Part shown: piece by piece, positions 2,270 through 56,736 of the stretch
How the letters are laid out: the number at the start of each line of letters is the position of its first letter
Position numbering within the stretch: the stretch's first letter is position 1
Virus record (IMG/VR): IMGVR_UViG_2721755344_000002
Coordinates: 50,308 to 114,307 of that record
Strand: one strand, 5' to 3'
Length of the DNA: 64,000 nt
From: a virus
Taxonomy: Duplodnaviria; Caudoviricetes
Position numbers and translations under genes: made by a program
Notes under the pieces: generated by a model
Seen by the model: the letters and a program-made list of their open reading frames with translations, nothing else
Databases searched by the model: none
Told to the model about the DNA's origin: nothing

Positions 2270-2558
2270 AAGTAGAACTCTTGACTTCCCGTATTTGAAT
2301 CATTCTTTTCTTACCTTCTCCTCCTGGCACAGACCCTTTTTCAGCAAACTCCGACAAGTCAATACAAACTTCCAACAACTTCTTAATTACCTGAATATTC
2401 TGTTCTGCATTTTTTAGACTAATCTTATGATTAGTCGTATTAAGTTTAAACTCAAGTACTAACAATTCTCCATTTAAAACAGTAGCCGATATATTAGTCA
2501 TCGGGCCTGCATTAGACCAACTAAGATATTCATACACTTTTTTTTCTACTTTTACCAT
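2250..2558 (-). CDS. hypothetical protein with KKRMIQI tail motif
   Basis: ORF with AGGAG RBS. Confidence 0.65.
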   Translation of the reverse strand: MVKVEKKVYEYLSWSNAGPMTNISATVLNGELLVLEFKLNTTNHKISLKNAEQNIQVIKKLLEVCIDLSEFAEKGSVPGGEGKKRMIQIREVKSSTFGDNVE

Positions 2559-2581
2559 AAAAATCTCCTATCATTTAGAGT

Positions 2582-2644
2582 GGGGGAGGCAGTCAGGAGG
2601 AATTTAGCGACTAGCCCCCCTCCCCCTTTTAGAACTTAGTCGCT
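2582..2644 (-). ncRNA. candidate structured leader RNA (pseudoknot or switch)
   Basis: Two overlapping 8-bp helices AGCGACTA/TAGTCGCT and GGGGGAGG/CCTCCCCC in an intergenic GC-rich patch. Confidence 0.4.
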
Positions 2645-2657
2645 TGAGGGCTTTTTA

Positions 2658-2682
2658 ATAAAATAACACTATCTTTAAAATT
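2658..2682 (-). promoter_or_regulatory. class II promoter-like motif (TTT-N7-GTGTTA)
   Basis: AATTTTAAAGATAGTGTTATT, one of six similar intergenic motifs. Confidence 0.45.
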
Positions 2683-2968
2683 GTTCGCTATTTATCCTAA
2701 TCATTCTCTTACTCTTACGGTTATTTGCTTTTATATTAGAATTAAAAGGAGATATAAAATTAAGTACATTCTTCCAACACTTTTTGTGAACATAATAGTA
2801 AATAAGCCCCTCTGAAATATCTTCTGAAATATCTAATCTGTACTCTGGCTCGAACGATGGCGATCCACGATAATACAACTGCTTCTGGCAGACAAAACAA
2901 GTACCAGGTCTCATTGACATCACCTCCAGACTTAAAAATCTTTGCCATCTGTGCAATTTAGAATCCAT
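2675..2968 (-). CDS. hypothetical protein with KRMIRI tail motif
   Basis: CFVC...HKKC, ends KSKRMIRINSEQF; true start may be downstream. Confidence 0.65.
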   Translation of the reverse strand: MDSKLHRWQRFLSLEVMSMRPGTCFVCQKQLYYRGSPSFEPEYRLDISEDISEGLIYYYVHKKCWKNVLNFISPFNSNIKANNRKSKRMIRINSEQF

Positions 2969-3099: not shown

Positions 3100-3297
3100 T
3101 CATTCCTTCTTTTTTTCAGCCATCTCTTTCTCCGCATCTAATTCCTCCACCCTATCTACGTGAAAATATTTAATAAGATCATCCAAAAATTTATTTTTCC
3201 ATTTCCAACAAATAGGAGCAGTTTTTGTAATCATCCCGTCGTCATCTACTTTCACACAAAATGTAGATTTAGGACTTGATAACCAATATGTTTTCAT
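3100..3297 (-). CDS. hypothetical phage protein
   Basis: ATGA-coupled to upstream gene. Confidence 0.65.
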   Translation of the reverse strand: MKTYWLSSPKSTFCVKVDDDGMITKTAPICWKWKNKFLDDLIKYFHVDRVEELDAEKEMAEKKKE

Positions 3298-3554
3298 TCA
3301 TCCCCATCCCTTAACCTTAGCATCCTCCATTTTGAAGTTCTTTCAACCTTGTTAGTATTTCTAACATCCAATTCAATAGGATCATTTTTTCCTATTATTT
3401 CTATCAAACCCTGAATGTTTCCTTCCGTAAATACAATTTCGGCAGTAGCAAAACTTCTGCATGCAAGAAATTCCTTATTCCGTTCTCCAAAAGAAGAAAC
3501 ATCAAGTGATTCTCTATCAATATTTACAGATTTTATATAACCTTTAACTTTCAT
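3294..3554 (-). CDS. hypothetical protein with RMLRL tail motif
   Basis: ends KWRMLRLRDGDE. Confidence 0.65.
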   Translation of the reverse strand: MKVKGYIKSVNIDRESLDVSSFGERNKEFLACRSFATAEIVFTEGNIQGLIEIIGKNDPIELDVRNTNKVERTSKWRMLRLRDGDE

Positions 3555-3724: not shown

Positions 3725-3844
3725 TCATCTTAAACGAATCATCCTCTTTGGTTTAGGAACATCTCCATTTTTAATATGAAATCGCTTATGAGCCATCTTA
3801 TAACATTTCGGTACTTTCTTCCCGCACAATTCACATTTTTTCAT
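3725..3844 (-). CDS. 39-aa zinc-finger microprotein with KRMIRL tail
   Basis: Manual translation MKKCELCGKKVPKCYKMAHKRFHIKNGDVPKPKRMIRLR*. Confidence 0.6.
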   Translation of the reverse strand: MKKCELCGKKVPKCYKMAHKRFHIKNGDVPKPKRMIRLR

Positions 3845-4001
3845 TTGCTCTATCCTCTCTAAGTCTTATCATGCGATACTTTTTAGGTCTAAAAATTAAT
3901 CCTAAATTTTCGCCAAATTTTCTTACTACGGAACTATCCTCCTTTTCGAGAGTTGAAAAATTATGCCATTTCCCATCCTGTCCTAGATATTCTATTTTCA
4001 T
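3831..4001 (-). CDS. 56-aa hypothetical protein with RMIRL tail
   Basis: Manual translation MKIEYLGQDGKWH...RPKKYRMIRLREDRANEKM*. Confidence 0.55.
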   Translation of the reverse strand: MKIEYLGQDGKWHNFSTLEKEDSSVVRKFGENLGLIFRPKKYRMIRLREDRANEKM

Positions 4002-5523: not shown

Positions 5524-5546
5524 ACGAAAAATTATTTAAAAAGGGT

Positions 5547-6627: not shown

Positions 6628-6646
6628 TTTATCTCCCTCTAAAATT

Positions 6647-17967: not shown

Positions 17968-18147
17968 TTATTCGTCATTTAGCCTAATCATTCTAAAATG
18001 CCGTTTTTTTTCGATTCTTTTAGAAAATCTTTCCAATTCTTCTAAATTATTTTTTAGAGAATATGGGGAAAAGTTTTTTGTAAGAAGTACTGACTCTAAA
18101 CAAATTACGCAACGACAATTTTGATGGCTTGGAATACAATCATCCAT
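17968..18147 (-). CDS. 59-aa protein with HxNCRC motif and RMIRL tail
   Basis: Manual translation MDDCIPSHQNCRCVICLE...KKRHFRMIRLNDE*. Confidence 0.55.
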   Translation of the reverse strand: MDDCIPSHQNCRCVICLESVLLTKNFSPYSLKNNLEELERFSKRIEKKRHFRMIRLNDE

Positions 18148-18603: not shown

Positions 18604-19272
18604 TCATAGTCTTATTAACCTCTTTCTCACTCTTAAATTTTCTATCGTCTCATCTTTATAAAACGAAGGAAGTCCACAATTATATAATTTGTTAAATTTC
18701 TCACAATGCCATAAATCGTAAAATTCTTTGCTCCACTTTCCTAACCATGATATGTATTTGCCTACTCTAAAAACATTGCCAGCAAATTTAGTATTACCTC
18801 CAAATTCAGCATAAATCCATCTCATCCCGTCCCAAATCCTAAATCTAGGTTTAAATCCATTTTTAGGAAATGCACGCAAAAAGAAATCATTTCTTTTTTC
18901 AGTACACTTTACATATCTTGGATCCACTCCAGGTATTGTTTCCATTATCGAAATACATTGAGATCCAGTTCCAACAAACTCACTCAATACCCAAAAACGA
19001 AAAGGAGAGCTTTCTATAATCATATATCCCATATTCCTAAAAGAAAGCTCTGTGGTAGTCTGAAGCATGTCCTCCGTACTATCGCAATCCAGTCCTAAAA
19101 GAAAATAGGGTTCATTTCGCCTTGCAAAAATAAAAGTAGAAACAAATCCTCTATAGGTTGCTCCAGTACTTTCGTCTAAAAATTGAGTAATATCTACCTC
19201 AAAACGACGGGCGTCTTCACCGTATTCCTTGACTTGAGATTCAGGACTAATTGGTTCTAAATAATATCTCAT
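18604..19272 (-). CDS. hypothetical protein with KRLIRL C-terminus
   Basis: 222-aa ORF; LDCD and IPGVDPRY motifs. Confidence 0.75.
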   Translation of the reverse strand: MRYYLEPISPESQVKEYGEDARRFEVDITQFLDESTGATYRGFVSTFIFARRNEPYFLLGLDCDSTEDMLQTTTELSFRNMGYMIIESSPFRFWVLSEFVGTGSQCISIMETIPGVDPRYVKCTEKRNDFFLRAFPKNGFKPRFRIWDGMRWIYAEFGGNTKFAGNVFRVGKYISWLGKWSKEFYDLWHCEKFNKLYNCGLPSFYKDETIENLRVRKRLIRL

Positions 19273-23999: not shown

Positions 24000-24239
24000 T
24001 CACTTTCTCTGCCATCCTATCTTTTTACTAATTCTAACGTGTTCTTCGTTACCAACTTCATTCCTTTTTTCATCTATTTTTTTAGCATAATACTGACCAA
24101 TCTCACCAGTAAAAAATGGGTCTCCGATTTCAGCAAATCTCCACTTTCTCAAAAGTTCCTCGTAAGAGGCACTATCAATCCACTCTTTCTGTTTAAATTT
24201 ACTAAAAAATCCTTTGTCCAAATCCTCAAGACTCTTCAT
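24000..24239 (-). CDS. conserved hypothetical phage protein
   Basis: WID.ASYEELLRKWRFA..GDP.F.G...SKKIGW. Confidence 0.7.
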   Translation of the reverse strand: MKSLEDLDKGFFSKFKQKEWIDSASYEELLRKWRFAEIGDPFFTGEIGQYYAKKIDEKRNEVGNEEHVRISKKIGWQRK

Positions 24240-24823
24240 TTTTGCAATCTTATCATTCTTCTAAATTTAATGTATTTTGGAAAGACACACTTTATTTCTT
24301 CGACAGTAGCTAATCTAAATCTCTCTTTCCACCACCCTCCAGGCGGATATTTAAAATATACATACTCCGTTTTATCATTGCCCACCGGACGCCTAACTTC
24401 ATCAACAATATAAATTTCACCTTGTCTCAATCTCACAGAGTCGGGCGGAGCATCAATACAAATAACTCTGTCTCCAGATTTAAATTTATCCATCTCTGCT
24501 CCTTCTTCTTCATCTCCTATAAAAGAAGTCTGCCAGGCATTATTAGTACCAACAAATTGATTATACCATTGTTCTCTCAGACTCAAAGACTGAAGATCTC
24601 CCTGATTTATATTTACGTCACCTATCACACAAATAGTTTCTTCAGGCCGAGGCCATAAATGAATTTCGTGCTCAAAATACGCCTCAGAACAAATAAGACA
24701 CTTACCCAAATGTTCTCTTCTTCCAGATAAGGTTGCCACTGTAGTTACACAATTTTTACACATTCTTCTACCGCATTTGGGACATATTAAATCTCCAGCA
24801 CAACATTCAATATGTTCGATCAT
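24236..24823 (-). CDS. Cys-rich plus SH3-like hypothetical protein with RRMIRL tail
   Basis: N-terminal CxxC pairs, KFKSGDRVIC, ends FRRMIRLQK. Confidence 0.7.
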   Translation of the reverse strand: MIEHIECCAGDLICPKCGRRMCKNCVTTVATLSGRREHLGKCLICSEAYFEHEIHLWPRPEETICVIGDVNINQGDLQSLSLREQWYNQFVGTNNAWQTSFIGDEEEGAEMDKFKSGDRVICIDAPPDSVRLRQGEIYIVDEVRRPVGNDKTEYVYFKYPPGGWWKERFRLATVEEIKCVFPKYIKFRRMIRLQK

Positions 24824-25699: not shown

Positions 25700-26483
25700 T
25701 AAAATTATCCTCTAAAATGCGCATCAACAATTCCTCTGCTCTATTGTAATCAGGCTTGTCTTTCAGCGTACTATGAATATATGCTTGTTCAGCCAATCCA
25801 AATAGCTTCTCAGCTTCTCTTTTCACCTGTTCCAGAGTCCACTCCCCATTTTTTATAGAAATGAGTTGTGGAGCATCCTCACGCTCTACATACAAAACAC
25901 CCTCAGTAAGAAACTCTATCCCCATCTTTAGAAGACGAATCAAATGTGCTCCATTTTTACAATCAAACCCGAACTTCTCTACAAGTTTTTTTCTCTTCTC
26001 CCCCATATAACCTTCAAATTTAAAATGTGTCATTCTTTTAAACTGTCCATACGCATATCCGCTAAAAGAATGATAGGCATGCTTGCTCACAAATATATCA
26101 CGGTTATCAATAAGCAACTGCCCGTATTTATTCCTACTTAAATAATACTTCTCTGGTAGCCACAACATCATCATAACATTGGGGTTACATTTAAGAAGAA
26201 GCCCAACAAACTTCCTTAACTCGTATAGAATAATATCCCACTCCTGAACCTGTCTTTCATAAACTTCCCTTTTCCCAAATCCTAAATAATGATTCTTAGG
26301 CGCAATAAAGATACCCATAACATCTTTGTCATCCGTGCTGTTTGGCTTATTAGAAGGAAGATAAGTACCGTGCGCTATTGACCCTCTATATCCAGATAAA
26401 ACTATATTCAACGGATTGTTGTTTCCATCCGTAAATAATTCTTTAGTCTTCTCGTCTGACAAACCTTTTAAGTTCATTATCAT
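25677..26483 (-). CDS. DNA polymerase beta-superfamily nucleotidyltransferase (phage YcgL/RlaP-like)
   Basis: YRGSIAHG...STDDKDVMGIF, NPNV, GYAYGQ, K.GAHLIRLL. Confidence 0.85.
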   Translation of the reverse strand: MIMNLKGLSDEKTKELFTDGNNNPLNIVLSGYRGSIAHGTYLPSNKPNSTDDKDVMGIFIAPKNHYLGFGKREVYERQVQEWDIILYELRKFVGLLLKCNPNVMMMLWLPEKYYLSRNKYGQLLIDNRDIFVSKHAYHSFSGYAYGQFKRMTHFKFEGYMGEKRKKLVEKFGFDCKNGAHLIRLLKMGIEFLTEGVLYVEREDAPQLISIKNGEWTLEQVKREAEKLFGLAEQAYIHSTLKDKPDYNRAEELLMRILEDNFNETSSKD

Positions 26484-26725
26484 AACCTAAACAAACGATA
26501 CGATTTCTTCTCTAAACAACCTCTTCCATCGGGATCATTTTTCTTATCCAAAGCCGTAGCAAGTTCTGACATTAGAATATGAGCATTGTTATTGTGCTTC
26601 AAATACTCCTGAAAAATCTCTCCACGATCTCCGGTTGAAATACCAGAAAATAAAGCAAAAAACAATTCCCACATCCCGTTGATTTCTTTACTCAAAGCGA
26701 ATAAAAGCTCGTGCTTCTCTTCCAT
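26480..26725 (-). CDS. hypothetical protein with RLFRL C-terminus
   Basis: coupled ORF. Confidence 0.6.
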   Translation of the reverse strand: MEEKHELLFALSKEINGMWELFFALFSGISTGDRGEIFQEYLKHNNNAHILMSELATALDKKNDPDGRGCLEKKSYRLFRL

Positions 26726-30447: not shown

Positions 30448-30849
30448 TTACCAGGTAGAAACTTTATCAACTTTTAATTGCCTCAGCATTAACATTACAT
30501 CTCCGTCTTTATCGGGCTCGAGCCATATTTTTTCGCCCTCCACATTATCCAAGTTCTTATATCTTTTAATAGCCATAAAAGAAATTTCTCCAATTTCTCC
30601 ATCCTTAAAAATTTCTCCAATTTCCCCATTACCGTTGACCTTAACCCCTCTATGAAAGTGAAAGTATCCAATTATCCTTCCGTCCACTTCAATATAAACA
30701 TGTTCCACCTCCGCAACTTTCCGATCTAGGTTTATCCCAAATCTAACATAAGGTCTGCCTATACTAAATCCTTTCTTTTTTATAAAAGGTTTAACAATAG
30801 GAATTTCTGGATAACCTTCCAGTCTGATTCTGCGTTTAGGCTTTGTCAA
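30448..30849 (-). CDS. hypothetical protein with N-terminal KRRIRL motif
   Basis: MTKPKRRIRLE. Confidence 0.6.
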   Translation of the reverse strand: MTKPKRRIRLEGYPEIPIVKPFIKKKGFSIGRPYVRFGINLDRKVAEVEHVYIEVDGRIIGYFHFHRGVKVNGNGEIGEIFKDGEIGEISFMAIKRYKNLDNVEGEKIWLEPDKDGDVMLMLRQLKVDKVSTW

Positions 30850-31336
30850 TTCTTATTAACCTCTTCTTCTTGTAGTCTCTTTTAAGAATTGGTTTGGGTC
30901 CATCCAAAACAATATATTTACCAATCACATCTCGAAAATCTTTCAGTGATTCTTTAATTTCTTTTTTGAGCTCGCCAAAAGTCCATTTCTTACCTGATGC
31001 TCTACTGGAGGATCCATAATGAGCATAATCCCCAGCATGCCCATAGTCCCACCCATAAAAAAACCAGCCCGATGGCAAATAAACATCATCTCCACCTCCA
31101 GCAAAAGTCAATCCTCCGTGACAATGAAAAGGATTAAAAATATCGTCCTCATAACTTTTATTAGCTAAGGAATGATCTAAAGGAATACCTATATAACAAC
31201 ACCAAGCCATTGGTCCCCGCATTATTATTGAACGAAATGAACCAAAAGCTTCGATGTCGGTAACGTCATAGACAATCGTCCCCATTTCTAACTTACCCAA
31301 ATCCCAAAAATCTTCACTCACGTTAAATCTTTTCAT
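30836..31336 (-). CDS. conserved hypothetical phage protein with KRLIRI tail
   Basis: CHGGLTF, GWDYGHAGD. Confidence 0.75.
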   Translation of the reverse strand: MKRFNVSEDFWDLGKLEMGTIVYDVTDIEAFGSFRSIIMRGPMAWCCYIGIPLDHSLANKSYEDDIFNPFHCHGGLTFAGGGDDVYLPSGWFFYGWDYGHAGDYAHYGSSSRASGKKWTFGELKKEIKESLKDFRDVIGKYIVLDGPKPILKRDYKKKRLIRIDKA

Positions 31337-35567: not shown

Positions 35568-35689
35568 CTTCGATTAGAGCATCGAACTTGATACAAAGTA
35601 TCTTTTTTTCCTGTTACCAACTTCGGATGAGATACATTTAGTTTAGCAACCGATCCGCAAAATGGACAGAACATTAAATTAAGCTTCAT
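35477..35689 (-). CDS. Lar (restriction alleviation)-like protein
   Basis: L..CPFCGS.A...C....C...AVESWN.R. Confidence 0.7.
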   Translation of the reverse strand: MKLNLMFCPFCGSVAKLNVSHPKLVTGKKDTLYQVRCSNRRCGIMTMRWYPKSAAVESWNMRAYSRMSSL

Positions 35690-36134
35690 TACTTACCTCT
35701 AACCTAAATAAACGTTTATGTTGTTCTCCTCTTTTTAGAGGAATATAAGGATTTAATTCTTTCATCCACTTTCTAGGCATCCTTCGCACAGTAGCCAATA
35801 TTTTTTTCTCGGCATCTTTTTGAACAAAGATTTTCCATTGGGGTTTATAAGCAAACGAAGACATAGACTTACGTTCCTCAAAATAAATCGTCTCTGTTAA
35901 ATTATAAGTTTTTATTAAAGTTCGGTGTGATTTCCTCCACCAAAAAGTTGTATGCACTAAAAGAGGTTCTTTCAACTCTTTGATGTATTTCTCTACATCT
36001 ATCCATCCTCCCTTAACTACAAAAGGATCTCCTTTTGGCGTATAACAAAAGGCAATAGTAAAAGGACTCATAGGTTGATTTGAACCCCACAAATTAGGAG
36101 TAGGTTGATAGGCAAAAACAATCTCTTTAAGCAT
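35679..36134 (-). CDS. hypothetical protein with KRLFRL tail
   Basis: 151-aa ORF. Confidence 0.7.
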   Translation of the reverse strand: MLKEIVFAYQPTPNLWGSNQPMSPFTIAFCYTPKGDPFVVKGGWIDVEKYIKELKEPLLVHTTFWWRKSHRTLIKTYNLTETIYFEERKSMSSFAYKPQWKIFVQKDAEKKILATVRRMPRKWMKELNPYIPLKRGEQHKRLFRLEVSNEA

Positions 36135-37591: not shown

Positions 37592-37873
37592 TTAATCTCC
37601 ATCCGAAATTCTAATCTTTCTTAGATATTTACGAAACCTGCCCTCTCCGAAAAAAATTGTGGGAGATGTTACTTCTCGATATGCAGGAGCACCTAAATTA
37701 TATAAGAATTGAGGATCTGATGTAGCACAAGCTTCACAATAAAAAATAAATCCATTTCTGGTTCCAAATTTAGCAGAAACTTTAAGTCGGTTGGCCCCCA
37801 TAAAAATATAATTATTGCATTTCCTACAATGAGACCTACTAGACTTAGCCTTTTCCCATACAAGATTATTCAT
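37592..37873 (-). CDS. PARP-type zinc-finger-like protein with RKIRI tail
   Basis: EKAKSSRSHCRKC...I..G..R...YCEAC. Confidence 0.6.
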   Translation of the reverse strand: MNNLVWEKAKSSRSHCRKCNNYIFMGANRLKVSAKFGTRNGFIFYCEACATSDPQFLYNLGAPAYREVTSPTIFFGEGRFRKYLRKIRISDGD

Positions 37874-42510: not shown

Positions 42511-42534
42511 TATATTAACACCTTTGCAAAAATT
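42511..42534 (-). promoter_or_regulatory. class II promoter-like motif
   Basis: AATTTTTGCAAAGGTGTTAATAT, ATG 5 nt after GTGTTA. Confidence 0.5.
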
Positions 42535-43297
42535 ACTCGTGAATAATCTCGTCCAATATTGCCTTCATTTTAGGAGTAGAATTATCAAGAATATAAGCTT
42601 TCAATTTTTCTTTTAATTCGGTTCTCTTTCGGTAAAATACGCCTATTCCCAAACCGGATTTCTTCTGTAACTTAGTCCAGTCTCCTATCTTCCCATACAC
42701 AAATGTATAAGCTATATCCCTTTCTAGTTGGTCAGTAAAAGAATAATTCTCAAACAACGTCCTTACATCCCCAAAAAACTCTTCCCTCTCAAAATCATTA
42801 TCTTTAAACGCTTCCGTCTGCGAGGCAAAATCATCAGATGTTCGGAGTCTTGCTTCTAACTTCCAATCTCGCTGACGATGATACAAGTGCAATCGAATCT
42901 TGTTTAAAATTTCCTGATTGAGAATATCTCCTAAAAAGGTAATAAATTTAGTTCGGCGTCTTCTATCCCATATATCTACTGCTTTAACAAAGATGAAAAA
43001 ACTTTCTTGAAATAGTTTTTGGCAAAGTTCTGGATCTCGACGTAAAATTGTAGACTTTTTTTCTCTAATAAACTGATGAACTCTACCGTGAACCAAACCC
43101 CTTACTTGATCCCAAAGAATATTTCTCAGGGGAGTCAAATGAGTCCGTTGATATAAATCGCATAGGTCGTCATACCAACTTGTGTCTCTCTTATCCTTGT
43201 GCAATAAAAACTCATTTTTTCCACGTCTAATAATTACATTTTCGTGTTTAGCCCGACGCTCTATTATCGGAATAAAAAGACTTTTAGCCCTTCGCAT
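42533..43297 (-). CDS. phage sigma70-like transcription factor
   Basis: Region 2-like LFQESFFIFVKAVDIWD...KFITFL; C-terminal HTH. Confidence 0.65.
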   Translation of the reverse strand: MRRAKSLFIPIIERRAKHENVIIRRGKNEFLLHKDKRDTSWYDDLCDLYQRTHLTPLRNILWDQVRGLVHGRVHQFIREKKSTILRRDPELCQKLFQESFFIFVKAVDIWDRRRRTKFITFLGDILNQEILNKIRLHLYHRQRDWKLEARLRTSDDFASQTEAFKDNDFEREEFFGDVRTLFENYSFTDQLERDIAYTFVYGKIGDWTKLQKKSGLGIGVFYRKRTELKEKLKAYILDNSTPKMKAILDEIIHE

Positions 43298-46272: not shown

Positions 46273-46955
46273 TCATCATCTTCCGTATCCGACCCACTAT
46301 CCCTCCGTTCCTGAGAAGCCTCACTCGGCGTCCTTACCCTGGAAATGGCGGCAATGCTGATATCATCTTCCGTATCCCCACGATATCCATCGGAGCCAGA
46401 TGAGCCACGATATCCATCGTAACCAGATGACCCTCTTGAAGAGGGAATTGTTACATCTTGGGGTGAAACTGATTCTCTTTCCCGAACATAGTTTCTAAGA
46501 TCACTAAGTATATCAGAAACCCGACCAGGATGTCCTGCGTTTCCTATTTCTTCCGCGGGCGCGGGTCTGATTAATCTTTTCTTTCTCCTAAGTACTTCTG
46601 CTAAATCAATATAATCCCCAAAAAATTTATCGGATAGAGCCATCAAAGTCTTATCCGAACTGTGGCGCTTCCTAATACACTCATACATATCTTTTAAATC
46701 ATCTGGACTGAGAAATTCAAAAATCTCCAAGAGAACATAAGGAGGTCTTATCACATCTATAAAAACCCTCTCGCAAATTTCGACTATTTGGTCCACATAT
46801 TCAATATCAAACTCCCAAATCTTTTTCTCCTTATCAAAAAAGCGGGGATAATTTTTGATAAGCTGATTAAAGTTTGAATTGTAAGGAGCTGAAAGCATCA
46901 ACTTCTTCTTATCAGGATCAATCCAAATTTTAGCGCACGGTTTAGGCAATGCCAT
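46260..46955 (-). CDS. hypothetical protein, N-terminal HARP-like domain and disordered acidic tail
   Basis: PYN..F...IK....FD...KIW pattern; KKRLIRP before the tail. Confidence 0.65.
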   Translation of the reverse strand: MALPKPCAKIWIDPDKKKLMLSAPYNSNFNQLIKNYPRFFDKEKKIWEFDIEYVDQIVEICERVFIDVIRPPYVLLEIFEFLSPDDLKDMYECIRKRHSSDKTLMALSDKFFGDYIDLAEVLRRKKRLIRPAPAEEIGNAGHPGRVSDILSDLRNYVRERESVSPQDVTIPSSRGSSGYDGYRGSSGSDGYRGDTEDDISIAAISRVRTPSEASQERRDSGSDTEDDEWIP

Positions 46956-50208: not shown

Positions 50209-50597
50209 TATCTGTCCTCCCTAGAGAATCCACGGTACATTATATGTGCATTCTCAAATATCTTAATATGTCCTTTTACCCACTCTCGCAAAGCATCTAA
50301 TTCTTCAAACGATTCTCTAATAGAAGCGTACTCCTCATCGGTAGCAATATTAATCTTCCTCTCCGTAATATTTTTTCCGGCAACTCGATTAATCTTATTT
50401 GCGAATGTGGCATCCTTTAAAGAAGAACGCTTCGCTAATTCTCCGTCGATCTGTCTGAGATACTCGATCAACACAGCCTCAACTACCAAAAAATTAGCAG
50501 CTCTTTCCTTCGATTCTGCTAACCCTTCAGACGTAACTGTTATAAGCTCGAGTTGCTTATTTACTTCATCAAAAACCTCATCGAAGCAGTCTATCAT
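50208..50597 (-). CDS. UvsY-like recombination mediator
   Basis: helical ~130 aa, ITE...I..DEEY, located between SSB and recombinase. Confidence 0.5.
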   Translation of the reverse strand: MIDCFDEVFDEVNKQLELITVTSEGLAESKERAANFLVVEAVLIEYLRQIDGELAKRSSLKDATFANKINRVAGKNITERKINIATDEEYASIRESFEELDALREWVKGHIKIFENAHIMYRGFSREDR

Positions 50598-51406
50598 TTC
50601 TTAGCTCTGTCTGCTCTTAGTTTATTTAATAGAGCGTTTACATCCTTTTCTTGACCTATTGCTTTAGGTTCTGCTTTAGGTTTAGTTTCTGGTTTAGGTT
50701 CTGGTTTAGGTTCTGGTTTAGGTTTCCCTTGCTGAAGCTTTCCAAGGTCTTCTTCTGATGGAAGTTCTCCATACTCAAGAATATACTCAATTTCCTCAAC
50801 CGACTTAGTTTTTACTAATGTATCTAAATCAACTAATTGCTCAAGCCATTCAATATCTGCAATTTGCGAACGGTCTGGATCTGGTTGGACGGAATATTCA
50901 TTCCAGCCTTTCTTAGATTCTTTAGCTTCGGTAAAAATAATATCCAGGTTTCTGCCGGTTTCTGGATGGCTTATGTCCCCCCATTTATCCGCATTACCAA
51001 TAAACCTCATCAGATCTCCCAGTACAGTAATGCCAGACTGCCAAACCTGAACCCCCTTGGATACCTCGTTCATATCCACAATATTATACAAAACTTTGGT
51101 TTGCTTTCTTATCAGTTTAGCAAACTCTGTGTCCTCTTTAACTTTGGTTCTGTAAAGAAAATTGATTTTCTCGCATACAGGACACCTACTATATCCTTCT
51201 TCTTCCAAACAAGTGACCCACAGCTCTTGATTCTTCCCAAGCTTCCAATGCTGGGCTGTCTTGCGAAAGAAATCGACTGACAAATCCAAAGTCCAACTCG
51301 GGAGAATACGAATAGTATTTGGCCCTGGCTTTGGATTCCAAAAATCCTTTCTTCCTTTCTTACTGCGAATTTCTGATAAAATCCTGTTAGCTCTTTCTGC
51401 ATCCAT
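50594..51406 (-). CDS. gp32-like single-stranded DNA-binding protein
   Basis: GPNTIRILP, HW, CPVC, DISHPETGR, Y.V; KPEP linker. Confidence 0.8.
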   Translation of the reverse strand: MDAERANRILSEIRSKKGRKDFWNPKPGPNTIRILPSWTLDLSVDFFRKTAQHWKLGKNQELWVTCLEEEGYSRCPVCEKINFLYRTKVKEDTEFAKLIRKQTKVLYNIVDMNEVSKGVQVWQSGITVLGDLMRFIGNADKWGDISHPETGRNLDIIFTEAKESKKGWNEYSVQPDPDRSQIADIEWLEQLVDLDTLVKTKSVEEIEYILEYGELPSEEDLGKLQQGKPKPEPKPEPKPETKPKAEPKAIGQEKDVNALLNKLRADRAKK

Positions 51407-51432: not shown

Positions 51433-51942
51433 TTAATTTTCTTCAGTAGTTGCTTCCTCTCCACTACGAGGTCTAATCCTTCGTCGCCGTACTGGAGTCT
51501 GGGATACAATAAGTTTATCCGGTGGGTGTTCGATAAGAGCTCCCAACTCTATTCGCTTGCTTTCGTGACGCTGTAAAATTTCTGGAAATTCTTCAATAGG
51601 ATGATCAAGAATAATCCATTTCTGAGCACCTGTATTTGTTATAAGTACCCCGCAGTGGCATAATTCGTGATCTACCAAAATTTCTTTCTGGGGAGAAGAT
51701 AATCTATCCCACTCAGGTTTAGCAATAATAATAATAAAGTCCTCTCGCTCTGCCGAAAGAAATTTATCTATCTCCGACCTCTTGGACGCCTTTCCTAAAA
51801 TTACTCTCTGCGAAGTAGTCTTCCAAGCTCTATCTCTGAAAAGATAAGCAAGTCTCGCATTGCCATCCACTAAATGACGGTGAAATCTAGGAAGTAAATT
51901 TCTTGCAATATCCGCTACTTCTGGAGCTCGTTCAAATTCCAT
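51433..51942 (-). CDS. phage putative metallopeptidase
   Basis: DFIIII...W..L...LVDHELCH, HPIEEF. Confidence 0.8.
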   Translation of the reverse strand: MEFERAPEVADIARNLLPRFHRHLVDGNARLAYLFRDRAWKTTSQRVILGKASKRSEIDKFLSAEREDFIIIIAKPEWDRLSSPQKEILVDHELCHCGVLITNTGAQKWIILDHPIEEFPEILQRHESKRIELGALIEHPPDKLIVSQTPVRRRRIRPRSGEEATTEEN

Positions 51943-51993: not shown

Positions 51994-54549
51994 CTATCCT
52001 TTCGCTTCAGCGAGATTATTTCCTGCATGAACGTCTACTTTCAACGGAATACCAATCATCCAGGGGTATTGAAAACTTTCCATAATATTTTTAGTCAGTA
52101 TCATTCCAATTTCCACTTCTTCGGGGGGAGTATCAAATGCAAGAGCATCATGTATTGTTAAAATAGGATGCATTATCAATTCCTCTTTTACCAATCTTTT
52201 TTCCATCTCAACCAAAGCCATCACACAAATATCTGATGCAGTTCCTTGAATTGGACTATTTATCGCTCTACGTTCGTTCTTATTTCTGTCAGGGCCACCC
52301 TTAATAATAATTCTCCTACCAAATAAAGTTTCAACATATCCTTTTGTCCTCCAATCTTGTATCGTCTTATTCATATATTCTTTAACACCATCGAATATAT
52401 TTAAGTACTCGTCTATAAAAGTACTAGCTCTTCTAGTATCCAATTCACGATGAATACCACTTCCAGTATACCATCCTAATTGTTCAGCCAGTCCTATCTC
52501 CGTCATTCCGTAAACAATTCCGAAATTAACACTCTTAGATTCATCTCTCATTCTTTTTACTTGAGGATCCTTAGCTTCGTAACGACTAAGAGCCGTCTCA
52601 TAAGAAAGACCATTTATAGTAGCTGCAGTAGCTAAATGGATATCCCTATTTTGCATAAATGCCTCAATCATTTTTCTATCTCTACTCGCGGCCGCCAATA
52701 CGCGTAATTCAATTTGCGAATAATCCCCAAGTATTATTTTTCCGCCCTCGTAAGAACTAATAAAAAGTCTCAAAATTTCTGAACCTTCTCTAACAGGAAT
52801 ATTTTGAAGATTGGGATTCTCCATAGACAATCTACCTGTCAACGTAATATCCTGCCGAATATTTCCGTGAATCTTACCATCATATTTTATATGGCCTTTA
52901 TCGTAATAAGGAGAGATATATGTATTGAGTTTCTTAATCAATCCCTTCCATTCCAGCAAATCTTTAATAAAAGGATGCTGGTGCTTCATCTCTAATTCTT
53001 TAAGAACCTTTTTATCAACTGCGTACCCTAAAGTAGTTTTTCTTTCAGGTTTGGTAAAATTGAATTTACTAAAAAGAATGGTATTTAAATCTTTATTAGA
53101 TGCTAAAACTTTATCAAACGTTTTGCCCCAGTTTTCGTCAACTTCTTTATATCCTCGCAACCGCTCAAATACATTAGCAATCCCGGATTCTAAATTTTTC
53201 TTCAAATCCTCTAAATAATCCATATCTACTTTAACACCCTGAACTTCCATATTTTTAAAAACAGGAATAGGTGCCAAAACATTTTTACGATAATAATCTA
53301 ATTGGTTACTCTTTGCTAATTCCTCTTCAAAAATCTCTGCTAACTCTAGGTTATTAATACAATCATCCATATTCATATCCGCTAATTCTTTAAGCGGAAT
53401 ATCTCCAAATTGTCGGCCATCTCGCAAAATAACTTTGTAAGAATCTGAGTTTAGATAATCAATGCTCATTCTTTCCAAAGAATGCGATGTTTTTCCCTCG
53501 AGTAAAGGATGGGCCGGAAGAGTATCAAAATCTACCGAATCAATATTAAATCCAAAATGAACTTTCAAACATTTCAAATCCCATTTAAGATTCTGTCCTC
53601 TAGGTGATAAATCCTCTTTCTCAAAAAACTCATGAAGAACAGAAAAAGTTTCTTCAAAATTCAAAGAACTTTCTTTATGCTCCAATGGAATAGAAAAAGC
53701 TTTTATAGCTCCATCTTCTAATCTTGTAGCAAATCCAATTAAAGTAATTTTAAAATCCGTAGCCCAAGGGTCTAAAGCTTTTCGTTCCTTAATCTTACCT
53801 GGAGCATCGGTTTCTATGTCTAATACAAACTTCCTCTCAGCTATCGTATCCAAAGCATCTAATACTTTTTCTTTGGTATTGCAAAGAACTTTCTCTACTC
53901 CAACTTTTTCATCCTTTATTCCGTAAAGAATTTTATAGGCACGATTCATATCTTGCCTAAATAACTTATACTCTTTGTGATCCTGTTTCAATCGAATTAC
54001 ATAAGCTGGATGGTGAGCAACAAAAAAAGTTCGACCCATCTTCTTAAAGAGCATACCTCTATACTTGGATATCATAGATTTGTTGAGAAAATATTTTAGA
54101 GGCTGTTCCCCAAGAAGAATTATTAAGGATGGATTTTTCTCTGCAATTTCTCTTTGAATAAAACTACCGCAAATTTTCATCTCCTCATTAGTAGGAGCCC
54201 TATTCTTTCCTTTATCATCTACCAATCTACAATGAACAACGTTGCTGAAGTAACAATCACTCTCTCCAAAACCGCATTCGGATAAAATCTTACGCAAAAA
54301 CCTACCACTCTTCCCCACAAAGGGACGTCCTTCAATAGCTTCCTCCTCCCCAGGACACATCCCAATAAACATAGCCCTACCAGGAAATCCTTCTCCTGGG
54401 ACTATCTTATCCCTACCTATAATACGGCACTTTTCGCAAGGAATTTCAGTAAGAAGCTGGTCGTTTTCCCGTAAACGAATTTTTCTTTTAGGCTTGCTGA
54501 CTCTCAGTTCTTCCTGAGTTACTATCCACTCCTGTTGAATCACTATCAC
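51994..54549 (-). CDS. family A DNA polymerase with N-terminal family-4 uracil-DNA glycosylase-like domain and 3'-5' exonuclease
   Basis: GMCPG.EE...GRPFVGKSG, NVVHCR, HHPAYV (UDG); DIET, NLKWD (exo); TGRLS..NPNLQNIP, DYSQIELR, KSVNFGIVYG, QGTASD, IHDAL (PolA). Confidence 0.95.
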   Translation of the reverse strand: MIVIQQEWIVTQEELRVSKPKRKIRLRENDQLLTEIPCEKCRIIGRDKIVPGEGFPGRAMFIGMCPGEEEAIEGRPFVGKSGRFLRKILSECGFGESDCYFSNVVHCRLVDDKGKNRAPTNEEMKICGSFIQREIAEKNPSLIILLGEQPLKYFLNKSMISKYRGMLFKKMGRTFFVAHHPAYVIRLKQDHKEYKLFRQDMNRAYKILYGIKDEKVGVEKVLCNTKEKVLDALDTIAERKFVLDIETDAPGKIKERKALDPWATDFKITLIGFATRLEDGAIKAFSIPLEHKESSLNFEETFSVLHEFFEKEDLSPRGQNLKWDLKCLKVHFGFNIDSVDFDTLPAHPLLEGKTSHSLERMSIDYLNSDSYKVILRDGRQFGDIPLKELADMNMDDCINNLELAEIFEEELAKSNQLDYYRKNVLAPIPVFKNMEVQGVKVDMDYLEDLKKNLESGIANVFERLRGYKEVDENWGKTFDKVLASNKDLNTILFSKFNFTKPERKTTLGYAVDKKVLKELEMKHQHPFIKDLLEWKGLIKKLNTYISPYYDKGHIKYDGKIHGNIRQDITLTGRLSMENPNLQNIPVREGSEILRLFISSYEGGKIILGDYSQIELRVLAAASRDRKMIEAFMQNRDIHLATAATINGLSYETALSRYEAKDPQVKRMRDESKSVNFGIVYGMTEIGLAEQLGWYTGSGIHRELDTRRASTFIDEYLNIFDGVKEYMNKTIQDWRTKGYVETLFGRRIIIKGGPDRNKNERRAINSPIQGTASDICVMALVEMEKRLVKEELIMHPILTIHDALAFDTPPEEVEIGMILTKNIMESFQYPWMIGIPLKVDVHAGNNLAEAKG

Positions 54550-55651
54550 TCCTAATAGTTGCTAAATGATTTGCAATTCTTTCTATTATTTCAGCGCCAT
54601 CTTCCACAGCAAGAGGCTTCAAAATACTTTCTAAACCGGTATTGTTGCTGAAATAAACAAAGTCGCTAGTATTGCTAGTAAAAAAGAAATCGCTTGCCCG
54701 CTCTACTTCCTCTTTAAAGAAATTAAGATCAACAGACACAAATCCTGCTTGGTCTCCAGGTGTAATATTAGAAGTAGCTTTTAATACCTCAATAGCTTCC
54801 ACACCACTTGGAGCATATGCGTAAAGAACAATTTCATCCAGAAGAGCTACAACATTCATTCTATTCATATACAACTCTGCATAAATAGCAATACGTTCCG
54901 TAGCAGCATTTAATAACTCTCGATCTACGGAAACAATAACCGACTCATCTTTCTTTGATAACTTATCATCAAAGAAATTTTTTCCCATAGGAAAAGTAAT
55001 TTTATTAGCCACTCCGAATATCACATAATTCTCAAACCAAAACCACAATTTGTTATCCGACAAATAATAAGCCAAAGGTTTATCCTCGATTAAATGTTCG
55101 AGTAATTTAGCAGGTATAAATAAATCTTTTTCTAATTTGAAATTGGGAGTAAATCGGCTTAATTTAATATTATCCGATGCATAGAATTTCTCCCCATCGT
55201 AATAAATTCCCTTCAACGATTCCTTAGCTTTGTCGTCTTTAGGCACACTAAAAAGTAGCTGATTCAAAGAATCAGAGAATCCTTCTGGAATAGGCTTTTT
55301 CATATCGTCCTCAGGCACATCAATAATAATTGTATACTCGTTAGGCGGATTAGGAAGTTTAGCTTTAAATCTTCTGGATTTAAAAAGAACTTCATCCTTC
55401 TTTTTAATTAAGTTTACCGTAGAGTCCTCAACTTTATACAACGATCTTGAAAAAGTTTCAGCCGGAAGAATAAACTCTTCTGAAATTGATATAGGGTTAC
55501 GATACTTGATTCCGATATAACCGTTAAATGCCGTAATAAAACCGTCACGAATGGCAAGATAGCCGAACTCAGGAATTATTCCGGTTGTAGATGAAAAACG
55601 TGCGCATTTGCCAATTACATCTTTCAATTCTGAAGCCTTAAACTCAATCAT
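54488..55651 (-). CDS. DNA sliding clamp (DnaN/beta-like)
   Basis: 387 aa, three-domain size, L.GIYYDG..FYASD..KLS motif of DnaN domain II, adjacent to polymerase. Confidence 0.75.
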   Translation of the reverse strand: MIEFKASELKDVIGKCARFSSTTGIIPEFGYLAIRDGFITAFNGYIGIKYRNPISISEEFILPAETFSRSLYKVEDSTVNLIKKKDEVLFKSRRFKAKLPNPPNEYTIIIDVPEDDMKKPIPEGFSDSLNQLLFSVPKDDKAKESLKGIYYDGEKFYASDNIKLSRFTPNFKLEKDLFIPAKLLEHLIEDKPLAYYLSDNKLWFWFENYVIFGVANKITFPMGKNFFDDKLSKKDESVIVSVDRELLNAATERIAIYAELYMNRMNVVALLDEIVLYAYAPSGVEAIEVLKATSNITPGDQAGFVSVDLNFFKEEVERASDFFFTSNTSDFVYFSNNTGLESILKPLAVEDGAEIIERIANHLATIRSDSDSTGVDSNSGRTESQQA

Positions 55652-55808
55652 TTTGTATCCTCCTTTTTATTTTAGTTGGTTGATCATTAGTGGGCCTTGG
55701 AAAGTCAGGTCGACTAGATTGGATTATAGGTTGGGTTATTTCAATCGCAGATAGACGCATCCTGAATAATCTCGCTCAATTAGCATTTTCATCAGGAGTC
55801 ATCTCATA

Positions 55809-56168
55809 TCATAAAGAATCGTAAGCTTGTTGGAACTTATTATAAAAATCAAACATCTTCTCGGTTTCTGGCGCTCTTAATGTGCGACAAGAAAAAAAGA
55901 TAGGTTTTCCGTTCACGGCCATCGGTCCTGCTTTATCATAATATTCATATATAAAATTGATTTCTTTTTCCATTTTCGCAAGGTCTTTTTTTTCCATTAA
56001 TAAAAGAACTGGAAAAGATAAAGTAATATCTTTGGGATTAGACAAGTGCCTATCACAAAAGATTTTATTACAAAACAAATCTTTCGCAATTTGTTTTAAA
56101 TCACTATCCGACATCATTTTACGCTTTGCCCTCTTCTTCTCACCTTTCATCTCACACCTCCGGCCCAC
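55809..56168 (-). CDS. conserved hypothetical phage protein
   Basis: IYEYYDKAGP.AVNG.P.FFSC. Confidence 0.7.
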   Translation of the reverse strand: MGRRCEMKGEKKRAKRKMMSDSDLKQIAKDLFCNKIFCDRHLSNPKDITLSFPVLLLMEKKDLAKMEKEINFIYEYYDKAGPMAVNGKPIFFSCRTLRAPETEKMFDFYNKFQQAYDSL

Positions 56169-56373
56169 AATAACATTAAAAATCCTGCTAGAGCAATAAG
56201 TATGGTTACAATTAAATTATTTAAGGGTGTATCTTTCATCACGTCCTCCTATCCCTAACATACTCCTAGCCCGTTCCTCCTTACTAAGTTTCATCCAGTC
56301 GAAGTAGTCCAGATTGCACCCCATAGAACAAAACTTCTTGGCTCCCTCTTTGTAGTTGGCGCAAAGAGGATAC

Positions 56374-56736
56374 TTACATGGAATTTTCAATCCTAATTAG
56401 CCTCCTATGATGAAAATATTTACCTTCATAAAGCAACGGTTTATCTCGCTTCAATATTCTGTATTCTCTAACTCTAAAATCGGCCTTTTTCCAATTATAT
56501 AACCCATTTGAATTTTGGGGATTTAAATAAGTGGCTATTTTTCTCTTCAAGAGATGAGCTTTAAAATAATTTGTATCGACATAAGAATATCCGTGAAGAA
56601 AATCACATACATCCCAAGTTCCGTCGTGAAATCTGGCTTCCACTACCCACAATCTTTTTCTATTTCTATCTTTTAAACGGTTTATTCTGAGCATGATAAT
56701 ATTTATACCGGGGTGCGGTATTATTGCACGGATCAT
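56374..56736 (-). CDS. hypothetical protein with RRLIRI tail
   Basis: ends HHRRLIRIENSM. Confidence 0.65.
   Translation of the reverse strand: MIRAIIPHPGINIIMLRINRLKDRNRKRLWVVEARFHDGTWDVCDFLHGYSYVDTNYFKAHLLKRKIATYLNPQNSNGLYNWKKADFRVREYRILKRDKPLLYEGKYFHHRRLIRIENSM

What the first reader, a model, noticed from the sequence alone, without database searches (positions are those of the whole stretch)
2289..56410. A shared terminal peptide tag ([KR]-R-[MLRK]-[IF]-R-[LI]) on ~17 otherwise unrelated phage proteins
SEEN: the same short motif recurs near protein ends. C-terminal: 2250-2558 KKRMIQI; 2675-2968 KRMIRI; 3294-3554 WRMLRL; 3725-3844 KRMIRLR*; 3831-4001 KYRMIRL; 17968-18147 FRMIRL; 18604-19272 RKRLIRL*; 24236-24823 RRMIRLQK*; 26480-26725 YRLFRL*; 30836-31336 KKRLIRI; 35679-36134 KRLFRL; 37592-37873 LRKIRI; 51433-51942 RRRIRP; 56374-56736 RRLIRI. 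N-terminal: 30448-30849 KPKRRIRLE and DNA polymerase 51994-54549 KPKRKIRLRE. Internal, just before a disordered tail: 46260-46955 KKRLIRP. Weaker variants: RKFNL (40744), RKFDF (63540), RRMEL (25307), KRRIS (57394). The carriers share no other similarity (zinc fingers, SH3-like, peptidase, polymerase). Codons vary (CGT/AGG/AGA, ATT/ATA), so the constraint looks protein-level, and the motif usually follows a short linker as if appended. INFERENCE: a genome-wide short linear docking motif that addresses cargo to one common receptor, for example a capsid/portal packaging signal, a phage replication-compartment or scaffold hub, the phage clamp, or a protease/chaperone. I know of no named system with this consensus.
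Basis: partly seen in the sequence, partly recalled or inferred. Interest (0 to 1): 0.88.

Follow-up and report, generated by a model that had tools for sequence, protein, structure and literature searches.

The report
Shared basic docking tag on phage proteins
About one in eleven proteins of this uncultured 114-kb phage, including its DNA polymerase and a likely primase, carry the same short arginine-rich peptide at one end; it behaves like an address label, perhaps for the phage's own sliding clamp, though no binding was tested.

Summary
The whole 114,307-base phage genome has 21 strict copies of R-[MLRK]-[ILF]-R-[LIP] in 243 called proteins. Seventeen lie within 16 residues of the C-terminus, against 0.15-0.33 expected from shuffles. 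Two are N-terminal and two internal.

The constraint is on the protein. Arginine codons vary, nucleotide identity equals that of random synonymous codons, and the distance to the next start codon ranges from 13 to 149 nt.

Carrier bodies are unrelated apart from one pair. In the one carrier folded, the tag lies in a low-confidence tail after a variable linker. Orthologues in other metagenomic phages keep the tag, more distant homologues lack it, and unrelated small proteins of two related contigs carry it too.

The receptor is not shown. My best guess (about 40%) is the phage's own beta-type sliding clamp. It is encoded directly upstream of the tagged polymerase, the genome also has a clamp loader, and no canonical clamp motif sits at any terminus.

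This scan has found analogous shared tags with other sequences in other phages, but not this one. I found no published description.

The parts
56389..56403 (-). [quoted passage not shown]
54472..54486 (-). N-terminal tag KPK-RKIRL-RE of the UDG-fused family A DNA polymerase (51994-54549; likely start is the second GTG, after AGGAG)
   Evidence: kept in relatives down to about 45% identity, absent at about 30%
51469..51483 (-). tag RRIRP followed by an acidic tail, after the PF18894 domain of the phage metallopeptidase 51433-51942
   Evidence: a basic tail kept in the five closest representatives, clearly motif-like in three, and absent from the more distant ones displayed
46563..46577 (-). internal tag KK-RLIRP of the 231-aa protein 46260-46955, followed by a low-complexity linker and an acidic tip ...DDEWIP
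37607..37621 (-). tag RKIRI at the C-terminus of the 93-aa zinc-finger protein 37592-37873
35700..35714 (-). tag RLFRL near the C-terminus of the 151-aa protein 35679-36134
30848..30862 (-). tag KKK-RLIRI near the C-terminus of the 166-aa protein 30836-31336; its AAGAGG codons may double as the ribosome-binding site of the next gene
30820..30834 (-). N-terminal tag KPK-RRIRL-E of the 133-aa protein 30448-30849 (TTG start)
26483..26497 (-). tag RLFRL at the extreme C-terminus of the 81-aa protein 26480-26725
24245..24259 (-). [quoted passage not shown]
18607..18621 (-). tag RK-RLIRL at the extreme C-terminus of the 222-aa probable AEP primase-polymerase 18604-19272
17980..17994 (-). [quoted passage not shown]
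3861..3875 (-). tag KKY-RMIRL-RED near the C-terminus of the 56-aa protein 3831-4001
3731..3745 (-). tag KPK-RMIRL-R at the C-terminus of the 39-aa zinc-finger-like ORF 3725-3844
3312..3326 (-). tag RMLRL near the C-terminus of the 86-aa protein 3294-3554
2693..2707 (-). tag SK-RMIRI near the C-terminus of the 97-aa protein 2675-2968
2292..2306 (-). [quoted passage not shown]
54488..55651 (-). candidate receptor: phage beta-type sliding clamp (387 aa, pI 4.9), directly upstream of the polymerase and overlapping its start
   Evidence: phrog_947, E 1.2e-23; AF2 model pLDDT 79; Foldseek match to E. coli beta clamp, E 5.6e-21 over 373 columns; pI
50594..51406 (-). gp32-like single-strand DNA-binding protein, a rival candidate receptor
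   Evidence: phrog_1192, E 4.7e-26; sequence

Best explanation
The peptide [basic]2-3 - R - [M/L/K/R] - [I/L/F] - R - [L/I/P], usually followed by acidic residues, is a short linear docking motif. It sits at a protein end or after a variable linker on about 20 otherwise unrelated proteins of this phage, and on proteins of its uncultured relatives.

Shown: it is selected at the protein level, it is terminal, it is portable between unrelated proteins, and it is conserved across a clade.

Inferred: one common partner reads it. The most likely partner is the phage's own beta-type sliding clamp, encoded immediately upstream of the tagged DNA polymerase. On that reading, the clamp is loaded on phage DNA by the phage AAA+ loader. 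It would then tether the family A polymerase, a likely AEP primase-polymerase, a metallopeptidase, a protein of the Mre11/Rad50 block and many small zinc-finger and ORFan proteins to replicating phage DNA, through a non-canonical basic clamp-binding motif in place of the bacterial Q-L-x-L-F.
For: Docking motif:
- 17 C-terminal copies against 0.15-0.33 expected, and an unbiased pattern scan recovers the motif.
- Nucleotide identity of the coding stretches is 0.612, against 0.603 +/- 0.016 for random synonymous codons.
- Spacing to the next start codon is 13-149 nt.
- Carrier bodies are unrelated apart from one pair.
- In the 222-aa carrier family the order is conserved core, then a linker variable in length and sequence, then the tag. 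The tag lies in a low-confidence tail of the AF2 model, with a mean pLDDT of 31 over the last residues.
- Orthologues at 30-47% identity end in RFIRV, RLLRP, RSLRI or KRRVEM-type tails.
- The five closest metallopeptidase representatives keep a basic tail, clearly motif-like in three. The more distant representatives I displayed lack it, and only 1 other of the 150 retrieved matches the regex.
- Related contigs L006 and L008 carry 3 and 5 C-terminal copies on proteins that mostly have no homologue here, against 0.003 and 0.03 expected.

Clamp as reader (circumstantial):
- The 387-aa gene upstream of the polymerase is a three-domain beta-clamp homologue.
- A DNA_pol3_delta2 AAA+ loader is present at genome 34403-35362.
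- The clamp-then-polymerase gene order holds in relatives.
- The polymerase's N-terminal tag is kept down to about 45% identity and lost, together with the N-terminal extension, at about 30%. In one such contig no clamp homologue was detected.
- No canonical beta-clamp motif sits at any terminus.
- The tagged set includes replication and repair proteins: the polymerase, a probable AEP primase, and a protein in the Mre11/Rad50 block.
- Positions at N-termini, C-termini and ahead of disordered tails match what is known for clamp-binding motifs (PMC11139829).
- The clamp is acidic, pI 4.9.
Against:
- About 20 clamp clients in a 243-gene phage is far more than in any characterised phage, and most carriers are tiny ORFans with no known link to DNA.
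- The motif has none of the features of canonical clamp-binding motifs (no Gln, no LF), and the four-residue basic-hydrophobic-hydrophobic-basic spacing is the APIM truncation (RWLK) that gave no detectable binding to E. coli beta (PMC7261172).
- The clamp loader carries no copy.
- An integrated element with a 48%-identical clamp shows only degenerate basic termini, and a cultured phage with a distant clamp homologue has none.
- The 10 kb upstream of the clamp in the 77% relative has almost no copies.
- Residue-level mapping of the pocket onto E. coli beta was too uncertain to show a charge reversal.
- Later checks of similar hub claims elsewhere in this scan gave them low odds.
Confidence: 0.4

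Rival explanations
1. The tag is a docking motif, but its reader is some other phage or host protein not identified here. Candidates include the gp32-like SSB, the RecA-like or Rad50/Mre11 proteins, a host replisome or RNA polymerase component, or a scaffold of a replication compartment.
For: All the evidence that it is a conserved, portable terminal motif applies equally to any reader. Most carriers are small early ORFans, which is typical of host-takeover proteins. Nothing ties the tag physically to the clamp. Similar tags elsewhere in this scan still have unidentified partners.
Against: The polymerase carries a conserved copy, which points to a replication-linked reader. No DnaB-type or SF2 helicase was detected in this record. 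The SSB has a near-neutral pI and its own different C-terminal motif. There is no positive evidence for any named alternative.
Confidence: 0.3
2. The tag is a degron or tethering signal for an AAA+ protease such as host ClpXP or Lon. It would resemble the basic MuA-type C motif-2 or the basic-hydrophobic tail by which the adaptor SspB docks on the ClpX N-domain, and would time the removal of early proteins.
For: ClpX C motif-2 is basic plus hydrophobic at a C-terminus (R/H-x-K/R-K-hydrophobic), and phage proteins MuA and lambda O are ClpX N-domain clients (PMC3983244). Most carriers are small early proteins, for which timed turnover is plausible. From memory, the SspB tail ends in ...RPALRVVK, which also has the basic-hydrophobic-hydrophobic-basic pattern.
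Against: Copies lie 0-13 residues from the end, usually followed by acidic residues, and also occur at N-termini and internally. This does not suit a signal that needs a free C-terminus. A conserved degron on the replicative polymerase is hard to rationalise. The phage encodes no ClpP, and the host is unknown.
Confidence: 0.08
3. The tag binds nucleic acid directly, as an arginine-rich tail that holds proteins on or slides them along DNA or a phage RNA, rather than binding a protein pocket.
For: The motif and its upstream flank are strongly basic, with a net charge of +46 over the six residues ahead of the 21 sites. Several carriers have zinc-finger-like bodies, and the polymerase and the likely primase act on DNA.
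Against: What is conserved is a fixed pattern (two Arg three residues apart, with M/L and I/L/F between them and a hydrophobic residue after), not basic composition alone. The trailing residues are mostly acidic (L006 and L008), which would work against DNA binding. In relatives, some variants replace the second Arg with Glu.
Confidence: 0.07
4. The tag is a processing site for the phage metallopeptidase (51433-51942), or another protease, which trims the ends of these proteins.
For: A PF18894 metallopeptidase lies next to or near the polymerase here and in two relatives. The motifs are in exposed terminal or linker positions.
Against: The peptidase itself carries the tag. Several copies are the very last residues, leaving nothing to remove. 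There is no evidence on the specificity of this family.
Confidence: 0.05
5. The recurrence is a by-product of DNA signals (ribosome-binding sites or promoters for the next gene) or of K/R/I/L-rich composition.
For: Two copies share AAGAGGTTAATAAGA, and in one case AAGAGG plausibly serves as the next gene's Shine-Dalgarno sequence.
Against: Synonymous codons are used as in the genome at large, and nucleotide identity equals the resampled expectation. The distance to the next start varies from 13 to 149 nt. Composition-preserving shuffles give 0.15-0.33 copies against 17 observed. The motif is kept in orthologues with different DNA.
Confidence: 0.02

Closest known systems
Bacterial beta-clamp-binding motif (CBM: Q-aliphatic-x-[L/M]-[F/L] and the hexapeptide form), carried by Pol II, III, IV, V, MutS/L, Hda and others
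   Same: A short linear motif, often in a disordered region, placed at N- or C-termini or internally on many unrelated DNA-metabolism proteins and read by one pocket of a ring clamp (PMC11139829). Here the polymerase carries the tag and a true beta-clamp homologue is encoded next to it.
   Different: The sequence is unrelated: no Gln and no Leu-Phe anchor, but two fixed arginines. The E. coli pocket is positively charged and its ligands have acidic flanks (PMC11139829), whereas this tag is basic. Binding to the phage clamp is not shown.
APIM, the PCNA-interacting motif [K/R]-[F/Y/W]-[L/I/V/A]-[L/I/V/A]-[K/R] (consensus from memory; RWLVK and RFSLK tested in PMC7261172)
   Same: Hydrophobic residues bracketed by two basic residues. 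APIM peptides bind both PCNA and the bacterial beta clamp pocket (PMC7261172, PMC11139829).
   Different: APIM has three residues, including an aromatic one, between the basic residues; this tag has two aliphatic ones. The four-residue truncation RWLK gave no detectable binding to E. coli beta (PMC7261172). APIM is eukaryotic and has no required hydrophobic residue after the second basic one.
C-terminal clamp-binding peptides of T4/RB69 gp43, gp33 and gp55 on the gp45 clamp
   Same: A phage-encoded clamp used as a hub by the polymerase and by small non-replicative proteins through a shared terminal peptide (PMC2988020, PMC7892883).
   Different: Those peptides are acidic-hydrophobic and C-terminal, and gp45 is a trimeric PCNA-like clamp with a handful of known clients. 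Here the clamp is beta-like, the polymerase is family A with an N-terminal tag, and there are about 20 carriers.
PolA + polIII-beta homologue + gamma-like loader replicases of phages Ma-LMM01 and RSL1 (PMC3201878)
   Same: The same rare combination of a family A polymerase, a beta-clamp homologue and a single AAA+ loader subunit in a phage genome.
   Different: That study reported no clamp-binding motif for those phages, they are not close relatives, and our genome is smaller (114 kb, about 87% complete).
ClpX recognition signals: C motif-2 (R/H-x-K/R-K-hydrophobic) and the SspB tail that docks on the ClpX N-domain (PMC3983244)
   Same: Basic plus hydrophobic peptides at protein ends, read by one hub, with phage proteins among the clients.
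   Different: This tag is often several residues from the end, is followed by acidic residues, also occurs at N-termini, and has a different fixed pattern.

Membership tests
Short linear (docking) motif | Statistically over-represented on proteins that are otherwise unrelated | tested here: met
   17 terminal copies against 0.15-0.33 expected; unbiased pattern scan; carrier bodies unrelated by blastp apart from one pair
Short linear (docking) motif | Lies in a flexible or disordered region outside the folded domain | tested here: met
   Tested on one carrier only. In its family a variable linker precedes the tag, and the tail has low model confidence, with a mean pLDDT of 31 over the last residues. 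In the metallopeptidase and the polymerase the tag lies outside the Pfam domains.
Short linear (docking) motif | Conserved in orthologues while the flanking sequence diverges | tested here: met
Short linear (docking) motif | Binds a defined partner | not testable with these tools
Canonical bacterial beta-clamp-binding motif (Q-aliphatic-x-[L/M]-[F/L]) | Sequence matches the consensus | tested here: not met
   The tag has no Gln and no LF. No QLxLF-like motif lies at any terminus of the proteome, and the few QxxLxxF or hexapeptide matches near termini are not on replication proteins.
Clamp-binding motif in the broad sense (any peptide read by a sliding-clamp pocket) | A cognate clamp is present and the replicative polymerase carries the motif | tested here: met
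   Beta-clamp homologue, loader, conserved tag on the polymerase
Clamp-binding motif in the broad sense (any peptide read by a sliding-clamp pocket) | The motif physically occupies the clamp pocket | not testable with these tools
The profile alignment to E. coli beta had only 43% probability and did not cover the C-terminal part of the pocket.
APIM | Five-residue pattern: basic, aromatic, aliphatic, aliphatic, basic | tested here: not met
   Only two residues, without an aromatic one, lie between the arginines. This is the spacing of the RWLK truncation, for which no binding was detected (PMC7261172).
ClpX C motif-2 degron | R/H-x-K/R-K-hydrophobic at the extreme C-terminus | tested here: not met
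   The pattern differs, and only 2 of 21 copies end the protein; the others are followed by 1-13 residues or are N-terminal or internal.
DNA polymerase III beta (sliding clamp) superfamily, for window 54488-55651 | Three-domain beta-clamp fold over the full length | tested here: met
   Foldseek E 5.6e-21, 373 aligned columns to 7azf_A, with hundreds of beta-clamp chains as top hits; weak colinear profile hits; phrog_947

The most novel reading that the evidence does not exclude
A clade of uncultured phages uses a previously undescribed basic peptide (R-hydrophobic-hydrophobic-R-hydrophobic plus an acidic tail) as a general address label. It would recruit some twenty proteins to a divergent phage beta-clamp: a family A polymerase, an AEP primase, a metalloprotease and many small takeover-type proteins. 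That would make the clamp a tool-belt far larger than in any known phage and would define a new class of clamp-binding motif. Equally novel would be a wholly new reader protein.
Probability: 0.4. Interest if true: 0.75.

Novelty: new variant of a known kind. Interest (0 to 1): 0.62.

Why it matters
Shared terminal peptides are how hub proteins such as sliding clamps organise many clients, but few are known in phages, and none with this sequence. If one partner reads this tag, a single pull-down with the peptide would give a first functional handle on about 20 phage proteins that now have no annotation, and on their counterparts in related uncultured phages. If the partner is the phage beta-clamp, the tag defines a new clamp-binding motif class and a first example of how a family A polymerase is coupled to a beta-type clamp in a phage, which was left open in the 2011 survey of viral replicases (PMC3201878). 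It would also show that a phage can route a large share of its accessory proteome to replicating DNA. The tag is simple enough to use as a search key for the same system in metagenomes.

Tried and rejected
- Close relatives were sought in IMG/VR with the polymerase, a carrier and the clamp alignment; none was found. The metagenome scan with the clamp alignment returned only one useful contig, which I already held.
- Several relatives' contigs had no retrievable DNA.
- The region upstream of the polymerase in the 77% relative (L001) and a 45% relative (L002) showed only the polymerase copy and a few degenerate tails. The matching region of our genome is also poor in tags, so this says little.
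- Pocket charge-reversal test against E. coli beta: hhalign probability was 43% and the alignment stopped before the C-terminal pocket strand, so I set it aside as inconclusive.
- Outgroup phage R7M, which has a distant clamp homologue and the same clamp-then-polymerase order, has no such tag.
- A tag-like RLLRP upstream of the SSB gene in L010 is probably non-coding sequence read through, so I did not count it.
- The clamp loader carries no copy.
- The by-product-of-DNA explanation was tested and rejected.
- A hidden paralogue family was tested and rejected, apart from one pair.
- Literature searches for a described proteome-wide phage tag of this kind found nothing.


Full report
**Setting.** The window is the right-hand 64 kb of a 114,307-base IMG/VR virus record, classed as linear and estimated about 87% complete. 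Every long ORF lies on the minus strand. The window holds the early and replication genes:
- a family A DNA polymerase with an N-terminal UDG-like domain (51994-54549);
- a RecA-like protein, Mre11-like and Rad50-like proteins, ribonucleotide reductase, a 5'-3' exonuclease and a methyltransferase;
- a gp32-like SSB, a Thg1-like enzyme, and a terminase with an intein;
- many small ORFans.

The nearest cultured phages share only about 28% identity in the polymerase.

Shuffling each protein gives 0.15 terminal matches on average. Shuffling only the last 20 residues gives 0.33. No shuffle out of 2000 exceeded 3. Because that regex was fitted after seeing the data, I also counted every three-residue gapped pattern in tails against bodies. 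The top patterns are M.RL, RM.R, R.IR, RMI and R..RL, with p from 3e-8 to 3e-6. The flank before the motif is basic (often K-P-K or K-K), and the residues after it lean acidic.

**Is it a by-product of DNA signals?** No. Arginine codons at both fixed positions follow genome-wide usage. Mean pairwise nucleotide identity of the 15-nt stretches is 0.612, against 0.603 +/- 0.016 when synonymous codons are redrawn at random. The distance from the motif to the next start codon ranges from 13 to 149 nt. The shared AAGAGGTTAATAAGA concerns only two copies. In one of them, AAGAGG probably also serves as the next gene's ribosome-binding site.

**Are the carriers related?** After removing the tails, only one pair of carriers is similar by blastp: window 3831-4001 and genome 33055-33306. 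Pfam and PHROGs recognise few of them. The exceptions are the polymerase, a PF18894 phage metallopeptidase and a few weak zinc-finger hits.

I folded the 222-aa carrier (18604-19272) with its homologues. The model has a conserved core with an invariant DxD. Its best structural matches are all archaeo-eukaryotic primase, PrimPol or LigD-polymerase domains (Z 3.6-6.8 by VIA-align, weak Foldseek E-values), so it is probably a primase-polymerase. The tag lies after a linker that varies in length and sequence, in a low-confidence tail with a mean pLDDT of 31 over the last residues.

**Conservation beyond this genome.**
- *Polymerase.* The N-terminal copy (KPK-RKIRL-RE) is kept in relatives at 71-77% identity (RKIHL, KKIRK, RRKIRL) and at about 45% (KRLLRP, RMLRP; KRILHP in L002). 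It is absent, together with the whole N-terminal extension, from homologues at about 30%.
- *222-aa carrier.* Homologues at 30-47% identity end in RFIRV, RLLRP or RSLRI, or in a second flavour KRRVEM / GRRVEF / KRRIEL. Two of ten lack it.
- *Metallopeptidase.* The five closest representatives (47-53% identity) keep a basic tail followed by acidic residues. It is clearly motif-like in three (LRRIRA, GRRIRP, LRRIRP) and more degenerate in two. The more distant representatives I displayed lack it, and only one other of the 150 retrieved matches the regex.
- *Related contigs.* This is the most telling result. Two contigs found through the 222-aa carrier's homologues carry the tag on several neighbouring small proteins, most of which have no homologue in our phage. 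L006 shares five genes with our phage and L008 shares one. L006 has GRMIRLDEEEGEG*, SRMIRLDDEEK*, ARMIRVDD* and an N-terminal MGRMIRIDDEE. L008 has KRMLRPEGEEL*, PRLLRPSLEVQ*, RRWLRFEE*, GRWLRPCMEEE* and KRMLRLSP*. The expected counts are 0.003 and 0.03.

So the tag is portable and belongs to a clade. It is not a quirk of one genome.

**Who reads it?** This is inference only. The gene directly upstream of the polymerase, overlapping its start, encodes a 387-aa protein that matches PHROG 947 (DNA polymerase processivity factor). Its AF2 model (pLDDT 79) matches bacterial beta clamps over the full length (Foldseek E 5.6e-21, 373 columns). The genome also encodes a DNA_pol3_delta2-type AAA+ loader. 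The clamp-then-polymerase order is kept in relatives, and a clamp homologue in an integrated element sits near a loader-like AAA+ gene.

Clamp-binding motifs are the classic example of a terminal peptide shared by a polymerase and many other proteins (PMC11139829). No canonical Q-L-x-L-F motif sits at any terminus here. The tagged set includes the polymerase, a probable primase, a protein in the Mre11/Rad50 block and, more weakly, the Mre11-like nuclease. A polymerase homologue without the tag lies on a contig where the clamp profile finds nothing. The clamp is acidic, with pI 4.9. Unlike E. coli beta, its chain continues past the last strand of the clamp fold into an extra helix and an acidic tail. 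If that strand forms part of the pocket as it does in E. coli, which I did not verify, this could change the pocket's specificity.

**Why my confidence in the clamp is only about 0.4.**
- Twenty clients would be unprecedented for a phage clamp, and most carriers are tiny ORFans.
- The motif resembles APIM only loosely, and its spacing is that of the truncated form for which no binding to E. coli beta was detected (PMC7261172).
- The loader has no copy.
- A 48%-identical clamp in an integrated element is surrounded only by degenerate basic termini.
- My attempt to map the pocket residues onto E. coli beta was too uncertain to use.
- Earlier notes of this scan describe analogous shared tags in other phages, several also read as clamp-docking tails, and later checks gave specific hub claims low odds.

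**Rivals.** An unidentified phage or host reader is nearly as likely as the clamp. A ClpX-type degron or tether is possible but fits the variable distance from the C-terminus, the N-terminal copies and the polymerase copy poorly (PMC3983244). Direct nucleic-acid binding is disfavoured by the fixed residue pattern and the acidic trailers. A protease site is disfavoured by the copies that end the protein. A DNA-signal or composition artefact is excluded.

**Novelty.** I found no description of this motif or of a comparable proteome-wide phage tag in the searchable literature. The combination of a family A polymerase, a beta-clamp homologue and a gamma-like loader has been noted in two unrelated phages, without a binding motif (PMC3201878).

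Noticed in passing
window 46260-46955 (-): A 231-aa protein between the Mre11-like and Rad50-like genes has a folded N-terminal part, then the tag (KKRLIRP), then a Gly/Ser/Tyr-rich low-complexity linker, and an acidic tip ...DTEDDEWIP*. From memory, that tip resembles the C-terminal tips of bacterial SSBs (DDDIPF). It may itself be an adaptor or hub.
   Followed up: partly
window 18604-19272 (-): The 222-aa carrier is probably an archaeo-eukaryotic-type primase-polymerase. It has an invariant DxD, and all 18 best structural matches are AEP, PrimPol or LigD-polymerase domains (Z 3.6-6.8). Neither Pfam nor PHROGs recognises it.
   Followed up: yes
genome 34403-35362 (outside the window, about 15 kb before its start): An AAA+ clamp-loader subunit (DNA_pol3_delta2, 62 bits) lies far from the clamp and polymerase, in the other half of the genome. 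Only one loader subunit was found.
   Followed up: partly
window 9261-11831 (-): The large terminase subunit is interrupted by an intein with a LAGLIDADG homing endonuclease domain. Two polymerase homologues in relatives (P0003, P0012) also carry inteins.
   Followed up: no
window 42533-43297 (-): A 254-aa protein has a weak Sigma70 region 2 match (E 5.7e-4), so it may be a phage sigma factor. It has no tag. A Sigma70_r2 protein is also present on the distant relative's contig L018.
   Followed up: no
L002, L018 and contigs of P0010 (relatives): Relatives carry 7-deazaguanine synthesis genes (QueC, QueD/PTPS, QueE-like radical SAM, GTP cyclohydrolase I) next to the polymerase, as do Queuovirinae phages, which also have a clamp-then-polymerase order. 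This suggests DNA hypermodification in the clade. I did not look for these genes in our genome.
   Followed up: no
P0121, P0123-P0125; L006 4721-4927, 7969-8703: Relatives have a second tag flavour, [K/G]-R-R-[V/I]-E-[M/F/L/V], in which Glu replaces the second Arg. It coexists with RMIRL tags on the same contig (L006), so there may be two readers or one tolerant reader.
   Followed up: partly
window 50594-51406 (-); L002 8187-9218; L010 614-1786: The gp32-like SSBs of this clade share their own conserved C-terminal peptide, [ML]-L-[NS]-K-[LV]-R-x-[DE]-[RK]-x-K...K*, after a Pro/Lys/Glu-rich linker. This looks like a separate docking motif.
   Followed up: no
window 23150-23860 and 25677-26483 (-): A Thg1-like tRNA-His guanylyltransferase (phrog_4717, E 5e-78) and a nucleotidyltransferase (phrog_388; 66% identical to an RlaP-family protein on L006) lie in the tag-rich region. 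This is an unusual RNA-repair-like pair for a phage.
   Followed up: no
genome 39900-39995 and 40898-41038 (outside the window): Short ORFs translating to ...GRVRFGLVRFGSVRFG... are the reading of pentanucleotide-periodic arrays that another first-stage note describes. They are probably not protein-coding and are unrelated to the tag.
   Followed up: no
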